A DNA stretch of 64,000 bases from Octopus vulgaris (lineage: Eukaryota): positions 23,436,001-23,500,000 of the forward strand of contig OX597819.1 in the NCBI GenBank assembly GCA_951406725.2. The letters run 5' to 3'. Of the stretch, positions 17,010 to 61,820 are shown one piece after another. The notes beneath the pieces are model-generated. The model was not told the DNA's origin. It made no database searches and worked only from the letters and a program-made list of their open reading frames with translations. The translations under genes were made by a program, and so were the position numbers. Within the stretch, counting starts at the first letter, position 1; every line of letters begins with the position of its first letter.

Positions 17010-17310
17010 TATATATATTTAGCAGAAGCAGCAGAGTGACTCAATGGCCGAGAGGTTATCGAACTAATTATAAATCCTAGTAACTAGTTTGATACGAACC
17101 AACGCACGAAACTTTAGGCCCTTGAGTCGCTTCATTGCTTCTGCTAAATATTTATCAGACTAGTTTCTAGGATTTGAAGCCGGTAGTTTGTCTCATGACT
17201 CGAGTTTCGTGCTACAGCGATCTTCAAGCTAGTTTTACTTTAAGATCGCAGTGATGCAAAATACGAGTCGGAAAATACGAGTGGAAGATTTATAATAAGT
17301 AAAAAGTAGA

Positions 17311-22200: not shown

Positions 22201-24536
22201 ACGCTGCAAGAAAAGATAATTGCACAACATATAATCATATATATTAATGTTGTAACTACAGTAGCACTGAGGGTTCGCATTTCCCTGAATCGTTATATGC
22301 GTTATAAAGAAGAAAAACCCAGTTGCGATTTTTAGTCAAAGCAGGTAGAACATCCTACCAATTTCTGAAAGTTACTGGAAATTTGGTATATTGGAAATAA
22401 CCTTAAAGATGAGCACCACACCTTGTTTTGTTTTTTTGGGGGGATGGTTTATTTTTCTTTCTTTTTGTCCCGTAACCTTCATCTTCTTAGACTCATTCAT
22501 AATGCATATAGGGCGCTTCCACTATAGCAAGAATTCCTAATCTACCCCGCTCTTGGACAGTTGTTCTCACAAAAATTAAGAGACCATCATTCCAAAAATA
22601 GTCTTACAGGTTCGCTCATTTTATATCTTCGTAGCCTTATCGCATTTTTAGAATTTGTCTGTCATCATATCTTCCAGTATTAGCATAGATGATGTGTATT
22701 CTTTAGCATCCATACAATAAGTATAATAGATACAACCTCCCAGCAGTTGACTGTCTAGTTGAGGATTGTTTTGCTAACCAACACTTCCGTTTCTCAATAT
22801 ATTTCATGAATCTTTGAACAGATGATCACCAAACATACTTTAAGATAGTGGAATATCAAAACAACCTTTTCTTATTTAATTATATGGTTTCGTATTTTTT
22901 TTACTCTTTATTAGTATTATTAGGTTTCTTTCAACCAGAGGCACTGATTGCTTTCATCGATTTTTTTTTCATCGTACATCTATAAACGATATTATATCAT
23001 AAATGGTAATCGCTACAATCAATTTTTCAAAATATTTCTTTTTCCGTCATGAATATATATAATATTTTTTTAATAGAAAGTCATTTTTTTGTTTGTTTGT
23101 GTAAATATTAGTGATTTGATTTTCTTTTCTTTTTACCGAAGATAACTTAAAGTAAATAGGACCGGTTTCATTTTACAGACATAAAGCTTACTTGGCCAAT
23201 CAGACATATTTCTAAACTGAATATGTGGTTACAATGAATCTTGGCGAACAATTGCAAAGATAACAAGAAAGTAAAACGTAAAGCTTCTTAAGAAATAAAT
23301 TATTAATCTTAGTTCTTTATATAAATGATGTTTTATAAATGTAAGCTGTTGATATGTCGAGGGAAATAAAGATAATCTATTGATTGGAAGGAGAATAAGA
23401 AAAATATTATATTTTATATTCCAATTTAGATTTATTACTCAAATCATACTTTCCTTACTTTTGTTAAAATTATTTGAAAAGCCTATTAAATATTTGCAGA
23501 ATTTCAAATATATATATCGAAGAAATTGTAAGGAAGAGAGGATCTAGAATAAATAAATAAATACATAAATAAAACAACACTTGTAAAAAGAATAGCATTT
23601 GTTTGTTGTCGTTTGTTCTTCTTTTGCTTAAGAAGATTTTGAATATTAATGAACACACATTTAACCACACATTGACAACAATAGCTGTAGAGACTACCTT
23701 AAAGTAATATTATATATTTATAAACATACTGAGTCATTCTGCAAACTCTTTAAGCAATAATACAAATTCATATAGAAAACTGATATGTAGCCATGAATTT
23801 TTGCATTCAACTTTTTCTAGCCTTCGTTTTCTTACGTACGATGTGACCACTATCATCTGTCTTCCCTCACATCAGATATGGCCATATGCTCCTTCTTCAC
23901 ATGTGCTTTCTCTTCGATATGTTCATTTTATACACATATGTTTTAGCTAATGTCACATGTTCCCTCTTCAAATCTGCTTCTTTTTATCTTTACATCCATA
24001 TCATACAAAATTATATAATACGAAATTGTACTTGATTTGATCTGAGGCAGTGTGTTGAAACGAGAGCAATTACAGTATGGAAGATATGTATCAACCTTTC
24101 AAAAATACACAAAAACTATTAACTTCAATTAAATATTTACCATTTGGTCTCAAATTTTTTTTTATCTTCGTCGTACTACCTGCCATCTTGGCATTGAGTC
24201 AGTTCTACCACAGGGAAACTTTTTCAGCGACCAAGTTGCAAATAGTACAACGAAAATGTTGAGAGTAAATAAATTATTAAATGATTTTAACATGCTTTTG
24301 TGTGTGGGACTTTGGCTAGTATACGATTCCTGAGCTTTAGAACTCTATAATTTGTATAAAAACCTTATTTATGTACAAACTCTATCGTGAAAAAAACATC
24401 TTCACCTGAAAATTTTTACCAGCAATACAAAAATTTATTGATGCAAATGATTGTAGAAAATTATTAACTATCAGCAAACCTTGATATTCTTCATTATTCT
24501 TCAGGCATTAATAATTTTTTAATAACTTTAATAACA

Positions 24537-28540: not shown

Positions 28541-28640
28541 GCCTGATGAAGACTGGAGGGTCTATCAGCCGAAACGTTATGTTAACAACAAACAAGATGA
28601 GAACAAATATCCGTCAAATGTAAATAATGTAAATAATATT
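28541..28640 (+). mobile_element. hammerhead-bearing PLE-type repeat, truncated within helix I
   Basis: CTGATGA (28543-28549) A GACTG..CAGCC GAAAC GTT ATGTT. Confidence 0.7.
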
Positions 28641-29784: not shown

Positions 29785-30997
29785 TTAGCTTGGAAAGAAA
29801 GTAATTTTGTTTTACGCAAATAGAGAGTTACGATTTTTTAAAAATAACTTTTGTCACCGTTATGATTTTTTTTCCTTTTGACATTTGATAGCCGTTACTT
29901 TCAGTACTTTTGTCTTGCTTTAGAAGCAAATTGCGCGTAATTTTGTTTACAGCTGTTAGCTCAGTGTCAATTTTAACATGGAGTACAAAAACGAACATTT
30001 TCGCCATATTTTGGTTTTTCATTTTCGTAAAGGCAAGAAAGCTGCTGAGTCTCACAAAGATATATGTGTAATTTATGGTTTTGATTGCTTAACAGAACGC
30101 ACACATCAAAAATGGTCTTAAAAATTCCGTTCTGAAGATTTTTCATTCAAAGACAACCAACGTTCTGGTCGACCTACTGAAGATGATGATCACCGAATCA
30201 AAGCCATAATTGAATCTAATTATCATATAATAGTGCGAGAGATTGTAGAGAGGTTAAATATATCACACACAACAATTGAAAATCACTTAAACTGTCGTGG
30301 ACTCGTTAAGAAGCTTGATGTTTGGGTTCCACAAATTGAAAGAGATTCACTTAACATAAAGAATCAATATTTGCGATATGCATCTCAAACACAATGAAAT
30401 CAACCTTTTTCGAAACTAATCATCATTGGTGGTGAAAAATGGATTGTCTACAATAGCATCAATCGAAATGAATTATGGTCTAAGTGTAATGAACCAGCAC
30501 AAACCACATCGAAAGCTGAATTTCATCAAAAAAAGGTCATGCTGTCAATTTGGTGGGATTACAAAGGTGTTGTGTATTTTGAGATGCTTCCAATTGACCT
30601 AACGATCAATTTAGATGTTTACTGGAGGAGGCAATCAAAGAAAAACAGCCAGAATTAGCAAATCGTAAAGGAATTGTGTTCCTGTGAGGTGATGTTACAT
30701 TCATCATATAGCCCTGACCTTGCATCATCAGATTACAATTTATTTCGAAGTTTTCAAAAGTCTTCGAATGGTAAAACTTTCAATAACGACGATAACCTGA
30801 AATCGCACTTGCTTCAGTTTGGGGCTGATAAGGACCAGAGGTTCGATGATCGCGGAATCATGAAGTTGTCAGAAAGATGGCAAAAGGCCATCGAACATAA
30901 TGGAAAATGTATAATTGGTTGAAGTTCATTCTTTGTATGAAAAAAAATTAATTTTATTTCTCACTGAAAACCGAAATTACTTACTTGCCAACCCAAT
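29785..30997 (+). mobile_element. degraded mariner (mellifera-like)
   Basis: Imperfect TIRs ..AATTACTTACTTGCCAACCCAAT|TA. ATG at 29978: MEYKNEHFRHIL..RSGRP..WVPQ, GGEKW, YSPDLASSDYNLF. Confidence 0.9.
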
Positions 30998-31054
30998 TAA
31001 AAATATGCTTCTTTGCTAATGCACTGATTATAGGTTGCATTGTCCCTGAATTTG

Positions 31055-31280
31055 TAGAGGGAAAAATTCTGAAGTTAAGTTGTTCGTTAGTAGCGCAAAT
31101 ATCGATGTGCTCGCTTAATCCTGTTTTTCTGTATTCCCGTATTTTAATCTGGCATCTATGTACCATCATCCTTTAGCGTAGACCGTTTTTAGTTTGACCA
31201 ATATATTGTTCTCGACACCCTGAGCAAAGTAATACATATATTAGGTTTTCCGAAGCACATGTGAAGTAGTTTTTCACTGA
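31055..31280 (-). pseudogene. Penelope-like GIY-YIG endonuclease fragment
   Basis: FTCASENLIYVLLCSGCREQYIGQT..LR*RMMVHR. Confidence 0.85.
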
Positions 31281-31934
31281 GTTTATTGTGGAGTGTGCAT
31301 ATGAGCCTGTATGTGTTTTACACACACGCGAACAAACACATACACACACATGCGCACACACAACACCCTAACAAATATTAATTACACACATACACACACA
31401 AACGTGCACACATATACACGCACCATCCTACCAAATATAAAACACACACAGACCCATATACACACGCCACAATAAACTCTGGAATCAATCAAAAACAGCC
31501 CACACACAAACACATGTATATACACACACACATAGAGACGTGAACAGAGACAAACACCTTCACACCATTCTGACCTGTAAGACCAGTCCCAAAAACCACT
31601 GAAGCATGACAGACTAGCCCAGAAACAAAAAAATCATTTTAATTCCATATTGCTCCTCCTTCCCCCCATCCCAACCAACCTCTCACACTGTCCCTTAAAA
31701 TAGCAAACATTTATAAATTCTTGAATATATCTCCTTCTATTTATATATATACTACCAAACAAACTTGATTTTTATTGAACTCCTAATACTTTTTGTTGAA
31801 TATTTTCTTAAATACTTACTTGTGAACTGTTTTTAACATTTGCTTATTATAATAAAAGAAAGCATATATGCATTTTAATACTTTTGTGATAACCAGTACT
31901 TAACACAACAAAGCTTATACAAAGCTTACATTTT

Positions 31935-31977
31935 ACTTTTGACAATCTTTTTTCTAAAAAAGTGAAACCGGTCAAGT
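31935..31977 (+). ncRNA. minimal type-I hammerhead motif with U3-A8 core
   Basis: ACUU UUGACAA U CUUUUU-UCUA-AAAAAG U GAAA CCG GUC AAGU. Confidence 0.6.
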
Positions 31978-32395
31978 TGATAAACAGCTTTAAAATTGCA
32001 TTTTCAAACCTTTTTTCATATATATTTCCACTCGTGCGGTGTCTTACAACTTTACTTTGTTATATATATATATATGTGTATGTGTGTGTGTGTGTGTGCG
32101 TGTATGTATGTATGTGTGTATATATGTATGTATGTATGCATTTGTATATTATGTAAGTATGTATATGTATATATGCATATGTATATATCTACCGCTTGAC
32201 AACCGGTGGTGGTGTGTTTACATCCACGTGACATACCGGTTCGACAAAAGAGACCGATAGAATATGTACTAGGCTTCAAAATAACTGACCGATTGCACCA
32301 TAAATAGAAACGTTGGATCCCCCCCCCATCACCGCCGCTGTTTCTCTTGACTGCTGTCTGAGGAATTATTACAAGATTTGCCACACTGAACTTCG

Positions 32396-32775: not shown

Positions 32776-33480
32776 CTAGTAACCACAATAGTTACTAGTC
32801 ATCGGATACCGTTGTATTTCTTCAATTCCATAAGACACCGACTAGAACTGTCGACTCCCAACTGTTCGACTCTGGACCCTCTTTTGACGACCGGCTACTG
32901 GTTTATTTATAATGGCTCACTCCGACCACTTTTTACCGGAAGGAGTATACAGTTTCACTATATAACAATATAATATAATTTTTAAAAGCTGCTCCCTATG
33001 CAACCACATACACACAAACTCACATACATACATACATACATACATACATACATACATACATACATACGTACGTCATTACATACATATAGATATATATATG
33101 TATCTGTATGAATGTAGATAATTATATAGGAACATGTTTTGTTGAATGCACAATTATTTTCTAGTTTTATTTTTTTATAGTGTGTTTTTTTTTTTCATAT
33201 TTTGGTATGAGTTCCTTGCAGTTTCTTCAGAACAACGAATTTATCGATAGCATTTCCTAAATCTATCGATAGCATTTCGAAACAATTAAGGGAACTCGTA
33301 CGCAAATCCGCAAATAAACATTAGATTTTTTTTAAAAGCTACAAAACTAGAACACAGTAGAATTATGTATTCAATGCCACACGTCTCAAAGAAATACATG
33401 GAGCTTCCTATATCTATCTGCCTATCTATCTTTTTTCTGATCCTCTCTCTCCCTCTCTCTTTCTGTCTCATGCTCTTTCT

Positions 33481-61349: not shown

Positions 61350-61820
61350 ATGTATGTATGTCATTATTTAGTTTATTTCAAGATTTCTTGCCAATAGACA
61401 AAGAACCGGTTTCTAACCGAAATACAAGGCTCCTTCAATAACAGGGTATTTTTCTATGTATGTATTTTTTAATGTATGTATGTATGTATGTATCTGTGTA
61501 TGTATCTATGTATGTATCTATGTATGTATGCGTAGATTTGTATGTTTTATGTATGTATTTTCATGCATATTGTTGCTCATATATATTTAAATGACAAACT
61601 GGAAAGTTTTACAGATTTTTACAGTTCCAGTGATAGATTGTATCTGTAGTCTTCAAATTAGCTTTCTCCTTTCTGGCTTTGAGAAACCTAATTTTGTTAC
61701 ATATACCAGGGTTCCACTAATTACAGGTATAAACCTGTTCTTGTAATCTGGATAGAGTAACTTCAGATTTTTCAATAGTTCAGTATAGGTGTTCTCTTTT
61801 TCACTGATCTTCAGCTTTGT
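61350..61820 (-). mobile_element. 5'-truncated RLE-type LINE 3' end flanked by (CATA)n
   Basis: KLKISEKENTYTELLKNLKLLYPDYK..QSITGTVKICKTF, stop at 61587-61589. (TATG)n at 61351-61360 and 61821-61840. Confidence 0.8.

What the first reader, a model, noticed from the sequence alone, without database searches (positions are those of the whole stretch)
31935..31977. Nearly intact hammerhead with U3-A8 core (UUGACAA) close to a Penelope GIY-YIG relic
Seen: helix I ACUU/AAGU, core UUGACAA, helix II CUUUUU/AAAAAG with a U-U at its base, GAAA, palindromic ACCGGU helix III and a canonical GUC site. It lies about 650 bp from the GIY-YIG fragment. Established: U3-A8 is a tolerated compensatory variant. 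Inference: the best candidate for retained activity in this window, probably as a dimer.
Basis: partly seen in the sequence, partly recalled or inferred. Interest (0 to 1): 0.7.

Follow-up and report, generated by a model that had tools for sequence, protein, structure and literature searches.

The report
Penelope retrotransposon's variant hammerhead ribozyme
This is one ageing, solitary copy of a likely self-cutting RNA motif (a hammerhead ribozyme) of a kind carried by thousands of Penelope-like jumping-gene copies in this animal genome; its odd letters belong to the whole family and each is known from other hammerheads, so this particular copy is ordinary and probably idle.

Summary
The motif is present as described. 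It is a minimal type I hammerhead in the end repeat (pLTR) of a 5'-truncated copy of a Penelope-like retroelement family (31319-32061, + strand). U3-A8 and the U.U at the base of helix II are the family sequence: 195 copies carry the same motif minus one T. A young sister subfamily (copies 97-99.6% alike, one tandem unit 5.8 kb long) keeps both features. Helices I and II covary across families, while the first helix II position is often unpaired. The nearby GIY-YIG relic is on the other strand and belongs to a different family with its own U3-A8 motif. Both odd features are published separately for hammerheads; I found no paper on their combination, but one key paper was not available. This copy has no same-strand partner in the window, shows no sign of selection, and is predicted to prefer a rival hairpin. 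None of 30 sister loci begins at the cut site. Cleavage is untested. The scan's earlier notes held no look-alike of this stretch.

The parts
31935..31977 (+). Minimal type I hammerhead motif: helix I 31935-38/31974-77, core 31939-45 with U3-A8, U.U at 31946/31963, helix II 31947-52/31957-62, GAAA 31964-67, palindrome 31967-72, predicted cut after C31973
   Evidence: family counts; cross-family pairing
31319..32061 (+). 5'-truncated copy of Penelope-like family B: CA-rich 3' UTR, AT-rich stretch, hammerhead and tail; about 60 bp missing at 31710 relative to longer copies; ends in a (TA)n run
   Evidence: RT and GIY-YIG upstream in longer copies
31978..32061 (+). Leader after the cut site. It matches the sequence between the 5' hammerhead and the ORF start of full-length sister copies; 32026-32061 is the optional PLE tail
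   Evidence: 79% identity to sister L162; alignment; copy ends cluster at 32013-32030 (25 of 53) and beyond 32050 (23 of 53)
31279..31320 (-). 42-bp inverted copy of 31438-31479, likely the 5' inversion of the family B insertion
   Evidence: 88% identity; absent from all but one of 29 family A paralogs' alignments
31000..31279 (-). GIY-YIG endonuclease relic of a different Penelope-like family (A), with an in-frame stop; not the hammerhead's own gene
31931..31967 (+). Predicted rival 10-bp hairpin (31931-31940 with 31958-31967) that would lock U3, U4 and GAAA
   Evidence: prediction only

Best explanation
The stretch is the hammerhead motif in the end repeat of a truncated, solitary copy of a high-copy Penelope-like retroelement family, and it would likely cut only as a dimer, in the RNA of tandem master elements rather than from this probably idle copy. 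Shown: the motif, with U3-A8 and the U.U, is the family sequence; longer copies carry RT, a CX4CxxC linker and GIY-YIG upstream on the same strand; a young sister subfamily has the layout hammerhead, about 120 nt, ORF, UTR, hammerhead. Inferred: in a read-through transcript of a tandem unit, two motifs pair through their ACCGGU palindromes into a double hammerhead and cut slowly after position 17, probably helped by the element's own protein. Also inferred: new copies are reverse-transcribed from RNA that is uncut (or re-joined) at this site, starting 50-90 nt beyond it, so every insertion, this one included, inherits a whole motif. My odds: family identity 0.95; the family motif cleaves at a low rate as a dimer or with protein help about 0.6; this genomic copy cleaves in the animal about 0.05-0.1.
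For: Family sequence: U3 31/31, A8 31/31, U10.1 30/31, U11.1 29/31 in copies picked by similarity; U3 11/13, A8 11/13 in copies picked by an upstream query. Hand count of the 100 listed of 400 flank-anchored matches: U3 97, A8 99, G8 0. 195 exact copies of the motif minus one T, control 0. Genome counts in front of GAAACCGGTH: U3-A8 8880 (control 72), C3-G8 294 (35), C3-A8 245 (39), U3-G8 194 (29); U.U plus C-G type 2544 (control 0). PLE coding parts: RVT_1 E 3.8e-9, above cut-off; GIY-YIG E 0.0025, below cut-off. Young sister: RT-EN 97.2-99.6% identical in 7 of the 9 other loci compared (2 gave no long hit), 847-aa open frame in L164, same-strand motifs 5.8 kb apart in L162. Window against sister: 54-56% upstream (shuffle level), 86% in the motif, 79% downstream. 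Across 16 hand-picked motif types, helix I pairs 1-3 hold in 46 of 48 and helix II pairs 2-4 in 43 of 48 cells with changing letters. Published: U3-A8 in Schistosoma PLE hammerheads and weak dimer-only cleavage (PMC4209133); protein-assisted cleavage and uncut RNA as insertion template in an anole PLE (PMC11167929).
Against: No cleavage data. 0 of 30 ORF-start loci of the sister subfamily begin at the cut site, so no genomic footprint of cutting. The 43-mer folds no better than shuffles (z 0.13) and its best fold is not the hammerhead. The double-hammerhead form lies 6-9 kcal/mol above the best dimer fold for all six U.U types tested without flanks, against 1-4 for the four with a paired base. 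The leader after the motif is nearly as conserved as the motif (79% against 86%), so some constraint may be promoter- or RT-related. The 16 types are hand-picked and partly related, so the permutation result (0 of 5000) overstates significance. The 4-bp helix I is shared with the commonest young sister motif, so it is not by itself a sign of decay, and family C's L120 has a larger flanked folding gap (16.8) than this copy (13.5).
Confidence: 0.8

Rival explanations
1. The motif is catalytically dead or nearly so in the whole U.U lineage and is kept as a folded part of the promoter, leader or RT-binding region.
For: 0 of 30 loci start at the cut site; weak predicted folding; leader conserved almost as well as the motif; hammerhead mutants did not hinder insertion in vitro in PMC11167929.
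Against: The catalytic core letters and the 3-8 Watson-Crick pair are kept across families whose helices and flanks have turned over; mismatched 3-8 states are only 2-3% as common as U3-A8. A U10.1-U11.1 mismatch is the best-tolerated mispair there (PMC3088659, section 8).
Confidence: 0.14
2. This copy is an active or domesticated ribozyme that matters to the host.
For: All core letters, the palindrome and 4 bp of helix I match the family; hundreds of family transcripts could in principle supply a partner in trans.
Against: Core substitution rate is not significantly below flanks among copies (4/341 against 87/3765, p 0.25; 6/139 against 115/1498, p 0.18). The copy is 14/280 from the family majority, and an unmutated 42-mer is common (195 copies). 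No same-strand partner in the 64 kb. Rival hairpin favoured.
Confidence: 0.03
3. Hammerhead and GIY-YIG relic are parts of one element, in the inverted layout common in Penelope insertions.
For: They are 656 bp apart and head to head, joined by a 42-bp inverted piece. A single chimeric insertion by template switching cannot be excluded.
Against: 0 of 29 relic paralogs have the hammerhead segment within 1.5 kb; 14 of 29 carry a different motif 265-673 bp downstream on their own strand. Family B's endonuclease is 31-49% identical to the relic and sits in a separate supported clade (96/94 against 99/98).
Confidence: 0.02
4. A canonical C3-G8 hammerhead that decayed by two chance changes in this copy, or a chance AT-rich match.
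For: C to T and G to A are the common decay directions; the helices are AU-rich.
Against: G8 in 0 of 100 flank-anchored copies; U3-A8 in 25 of 26 complete motifs of the young sister; 0 of 40 shuffles give as good a hit.
Confidence: 0.01

Closest known systems
Minimal hammerheads (min-HHR) of metazoan Penelope-like elements, including the Schistosoma mansoni U3-A8 families (Cervera and de la Pena 2014, PMC4209133; main text parts 1-3 of 4 read, supplement PDF part 2 of 3 and term hits; supplement file 1 not searchable)
   Same: Type I layout in the pLTR, short helix I, longer helix II, palindromic helix III, U3-A8 core in some families (about 1,300 hits in S. mansoni; also a Saccoglossus row), mostly solitary copies or opposite-strand pairs.
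   Different: Their consensus has one extra letter after A9 and then G10.1-C11.1. Here a U faces a U and C-G follows; no such junction is in the rows I read. The palindrome is 6 nt. Their list holds no cephalopod by my term search (0 hits for 'octopus').
Natural hammerhead core variants (Perreault et al. 2011, PMC3088659; passages and section 8 read, supplements not read)
   Same: Reports U3-A8 covariation in nature and a stem II that starts with a U10.1-U11.1 mismatch.
   Different: Described as rare, separate variants; the passages read do not show them combined or fixed in a retroelement lineage.
PAc (Poseidon, Anolis carolinensis) hammerhead (Frangieh et al. 2024, PMC11167929; parts 1-2 of 4 read)
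   Same: Hammerhead at the pLTR-ORF junction, two RT start sites giving an optional tail, AT-rich targets, no RNA ends found at the cut site.
   Different: C3-G8 core; ORF starts inside helix II, whereas here the AUG lies about 120 nt after the cut site; Poseidon rather than a linker-bearing clade.
Neptune/Nematis clades of EN+ PLEs (Craig et al. 2021, PMC8557442; passages read)
   Same: RT, CX2-5CxxC linker, C-terminal GIY-YIG, partial tandems, inverted 5' pieces, tail, (TA)n bias.
   Different: Neptune against Nematis not resolved here; the tail is longer (about 35-50 nt).
Small dimer-cleaving PLE hammerheads (Lunse, Weinberg, Breaker, doi 10.1080/15476286.2016.1251002; not held, seen only as a reference and a citing passage in PMC6765202)
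   Same: By title and citation: small PLE hammerhead variants that cleave as dimers.
   Different: Unknown. It may already describe this variant.

Membership tests
Hammerhead ribozyme, type I | Core N3UGAN N8A ... GAAA ... UH with a Watson-Crick 3-8 pair | tested here: met
   U3-A8 accepted as natural variant in PMC3088659 and PMC4209133
Hammerhead ribozyme, type I | Helices I and II supported by compensatory change | tested here: met
   46 of 48 and 43 of 48 cells paired across 16 hand-picked, partly related types
Hammerhead ribozyme, type I | Site-specific self-cleavage | not testable with these tools
   no bench data; no genomic footprint in 30 loci
Hammerhead ribozyme, type I | Match to an Rfam hammerhead model | tested here: not met
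   none at E up to 1; recalled: the models expect a closed helix III and C3-G8, so this is weak evidence
PLE min-HHR consensus (Cervera and de la Pena 2014) | Palindromic helix III too short to fold alone | tested here: met
   ACCGGU, self-duplex -8.3 kcal/mol
PLE min-HHR consensus (Cervera and de la Pena 2014) | Located in the pLTR of an RT-EN element | tested here: met
PLE min-HHR consensus (Cervera and de la Pena 2014) | One extra letter after A9, then G10.1-C11.1 | tested here: not met
   U.U then C-G, fixed in the family; hence filed as a variant, not as a match to the strict consensus
EN+ Penelope-like elements (family B as a whole) | RT followed by C-terminal GIY-YIG on one strand | tested here: met
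   RVT_1 above cut-off, GIY-YIG E 0.0025 below cut-off; order
EN+ Penelope-like elements (family B as a whole) | Tandem or inverted insertions and optional tail | tested here: met
Neptune clade | CX2-5CxxC linker before the endonuclease | tested here: met
   CX4CxxC in L091, L094, L164; shared with Nematis
Neptune clade | RT phylogeny with named Neptune references | not tested
   no named reference sequences on hand
Non-LTR retrozymes | Short non-coding units in tandem arrays, each with a hammerhead | tested here: not met
   solitary copy of a coding element

The most novel reading that the evidence does not exclude
A whole clade of this animal's Penelope-like elements has switched to a U3-A8 core and released the 10.1-11.1 pair (U.U, A.G, A.C as well as G-C and A-U), giving a deliberately weak, protein-licensed ribozyme; because thousands of copies from different families share one ACCGGU palindrome, they could cut each other in trans as mixed dimers, making even solitary copies like this one cleavable.
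Probability: 0.12. Interest if true: 0.55.

Novelty: new variant of a known kind. Interest (0 to 1): 0.25.

Why it matters
This copy matters little. The family-level picture is modestly useful: why Penelope-like elements keep weak hammerheads is still open, and this genome offers a young tandem element with a doubly unusual ribozyme, sister families that differ at the base of helix II, and one 359-360 bp repeat family in C3-G8, U3-A8 and C3-A8 states. That is a ready natural series for testing how much cleavage these elements need. It also suggests that searches limited to CUGANGA would miss most ACCGGU-type motifs here (8880 against 294).

Tried and rejected
Rfam scan: no hammerhead model hit. 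Pfam on the two halves of the window relic: 0 families; it was identified by translation, tblastn and tree instead. Expression: no RNA holder listed; the four runs laid were contigs only and cannot show strand, ends or level, so they say nothing on expression or cleavage. Test for copies starting at the cut site: 0 of 30 loci (L172/L173 are one inverted pair, L183/L184 one tandem); a family B piece in L005 that seemed to start near the cut begins about 6-7 nt after it. Test for selection on copies' cores: not significant. Search for the rest of the family A relic: one weak hit left of the mariner in 1 of 29 loci, and only shared SINE and microsatellite hits to the right. The rival hairpin as a conserved switch: not pursued, since it is the best flanked fold only for the window copy and L105 among 11 tested. 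Rows dropped: L017 and L020 (same place as L011; near-duplicate of L019), L061, L062, L089 (repeats of loci already counted); L158 fetched from the wrong contig and unused; the fifth fold was on the wrong strand and is ignored. Literature: searches found U3-A8 only in PMC4209133 and U10.1-U11.1 only in PMC3088659 (PMC3088659 also covers U3/A8 in other wording). bioRxiv 10.64898/2026.07.22.740005: part 1 of 5 read, nothing on this variant there; its supplements are closed. Lunse et al. was not available.

Full report
Observation. It is the only hit of my minimal-hammerhead descriptor in the window; shuffles give 0.075 hits per window and 0 of 40 reach its quality. Rfam has no hammerhead match at E up to 1. 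The genome is a 2.8-Gb animal assembly; by its repeats probably a cephalopod (recalled, and earlier notes of the scan say the same).

The odd letters are the family's. A search with 31740-32040 gave 3039 first-look candidates, of which 40 were scored, at 89-93% identity. In 31 copies from 27 of those loci, U3 and A8 are invariant, U10.1 is in 30 and U11.1 in 29; in 13 copies from 27 loci picked by an upstream query, U3 and A8 are each in 11, with the one C3 and the one G8 in different copies. A pattern anchored only on the flanks found 400 copies; by hand count of the 100 listed, 97 have U3, 99 have A8 and none has G8. The motif minus one T occurs exactly 195 times. So U3-A8 was in the master element and is no accident of this copy.

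What the element is. Paralogs share 31319 to about 32061 on the plus strand and flank it with (TA)n. Longer copies continue upstream through a CA-rich UTR into GIY-YIG, a CX4CxxC linker and RT (RVT_1 E 3.8e-9, GIY-YIG E 0.0025 and below its cut-off). This is the layout of Neptune or Nematis PLEs in PMC8557442 (passages read); I did not resolve which. Copy ends fall in two groups, 25 of 53 at 32013-32030 and 23 of 53 beyond 32050 (part of the sample was picked on this region), matching the optional PLE tail. Many neighbours in the genome lists are opposite-strand pairs.

The GIY-YIG relic is a neighbour, not the parent. It lies on the minus strand at 31000-31279. None of 29 paralogs carries the hammerhead segment within 1.5 kb, and 14 of 29 have their own, different U3-A8 motif 265-673 bp downstream on the coding strand. 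In a 20-row endonuclease tree the relic groups with these paralogs (96/91) inside a 9-row clade (99/98), while family B, its young sister and family C form another clade (96/94). The 42 bp between relic and element are an inverted copy of 31438-31479, likely a 5' inversion. One chimeric insertion event cannot be excluded.

The variant was in recently mobile elements. A sister subfamily keeps U3-A8 and U.U; its RT-EN region is 97.2-99.6% identical in 7 of the 9 other loci compared, L164 has an 847-aa open frame, and L162 has two same-strand motifs 5.8 kb apart around the ORF, with the AUG about 120 nt after the first cut site. Of 30 loci holding the ORF start, 26 have a complete motif, 25 of them U3-A8 and one U3-G8. 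Between the window copy and L162, identity is at shuffle level upstream (54-56%), 86% in the motif and 79% in the next 85 nt.

Across families. In front of GAAACCGGTH the genome has 8880 U3-A8, 294 C3-G8, 245 C3-A8 and 194 U3-G8 cores (controls 72, 35, 39, 29); many listed mismatched ones are single-change copies of U3-A8 families. These counts cover only the ACCGGU type, so they do not show that U3-A8 dominates all hammerheads here. The U.U plus C-G junction occurs 2544 times (control 0), 330 of them with a letter other than T next, including families with unrelated helices. In 16 hand-picked motif types, helix I pairs 1-3 hold in 46 of 48 cells and helix II pairs 2-4 in 43 of 48, while the first helix II position pairs in only 7 of 16 (U.U 6, G-C 6, A-U, A.G, A.C, A.A one each). 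The types are partly related, so I take this as supportive, not as a probability.

How it likely works. Established: metazoan PLE hammerheads with short palindromic helix III do not cut as monomers and cut weakly as dimers (PMC4209133, main text parts 1-3 read; PMC6765202, passages); the anole PLE motif cuts only with the element's protein, and uncut RNA is the main template (PMC11167929, parts 1-2 read). Inferred: a read-through transcript of a tandem unit such as L162 lets two motifs share a 6-bp helix III (self-duplex -8.3 kcal/mol) and trim unit-length RNA. Copies end 50-90 nt past the cut site with the motif whole, so their template was uncut or re-joined there. Against a strong role: 0 of 30 loci begin at the cut site.

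This copy. It is 14 of 280 letters from the family majority, more than the median 2.5% of the similarity-picked copies and less than the 7% of the upstream-picked ones; 14 of 31 and 2 of 13 of those copies match it in core, helix I and palindrome. It has one extra T in helix II and two private changes at 31978-31979 that cut the family's 7-bp helix I to 4 bp. The commonest young motif also has only 4 continuous pairs, so that alone is not decay. With flanks, the predicted best fold is a rival 10-bp hairpin that locks U3, U4 and GAAA; the double-hammerhead form is 13.5 kcal/mol above the best dimer fold, against 5.8 for L002 and 7.8 for L162, but 16.8 for family C's L120 and 9.9 for the C3-G8 repeat L116. 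These energies ignore the tertiary core. Cores are not significantly better kept than flanks among copies (p 0.25 and 0.18). No second same-strand family motif lies in the window.

Comparison and novelty. U3-A8 is published for PLE hammerheads (PMC4209133) and U10.1-U11.1 for other hammerheads (PMC3088659, section 8). The published PLE consensus has G10.1-C11.1, which this lineage lacks; I saw no U.U junction in the supplement rows I read (part 2 of 3). Seven literature searches did not show the combination, but Lunse et al. was not available and the supplements of PMC3088659 were not read; either may hold it. The scan's notes had no look-alike of this stretch. Verdict: a real motif, a minor variant of a known kind, in an ordinary relic copy. 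Interest 0.25.

Noticed in passing
L199 (G000:C4:80857199-80857949), L198, L114, L116: One 359-360 bp repeat family occurs with C3-G8 (tandem, L116), U3-A8 (L114, 87-92% identical to L116) and a mismatched C3-A8 core repeated in three tandem units (L199). A natural series for the 3-8 pair.
   Followed up: partly
window 28543-28580: Decayed C3-G8 minimal hammerhead of another repeat (CUGAUGA ... GAAACGUUA); helix II is broken near its base; a paralog lies in L012:2034-2126.
   Followed up: partly
window 23160-23203 (-), 17158-17199 (-), 61404-61438 (-): Three further hammerhead-like relics with damaged cores in front of GAAAC-palindrome-UH; none passes the descriptor.
   Followed up: no
window about 29785-30996: Mariner-like transposase relic with TIR-like ends (family name recalled, not tested) abutting the GIY-YIG relic and probably cutting it off from its own hammerhead.
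   Followed up: partly
L162; L183/L184 (G000:C2:55956821 and 55962651): Full-length tandem units of the young sister subfamily, 5.8 kb period, with an ORF of over 1,000 codons split by frameshifts in L162.
   Followed up: partly
L146, L147, L155: A second young U3-A8 family (helix II GGUC/GACC) with open frames up to 784 aa, mostly in inverted pairs 3-4 kb apart; sister to the window relic's family.
   Followed up: partly
L096 5482-2529 (minus strand as oriented): A different Penelope-like element with RT and GIY-YIG, and an Asn-rich linker, sits head to head with a family B copy, separated by family B's tail and a short (TA)n.
   Followed up: no
window 32810-32965: Short non-repetitive stretch ending in TATAACA next to (TA)-rich sequence; may be the end of an LTR-type or other element (by eye).
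   Followed up: no
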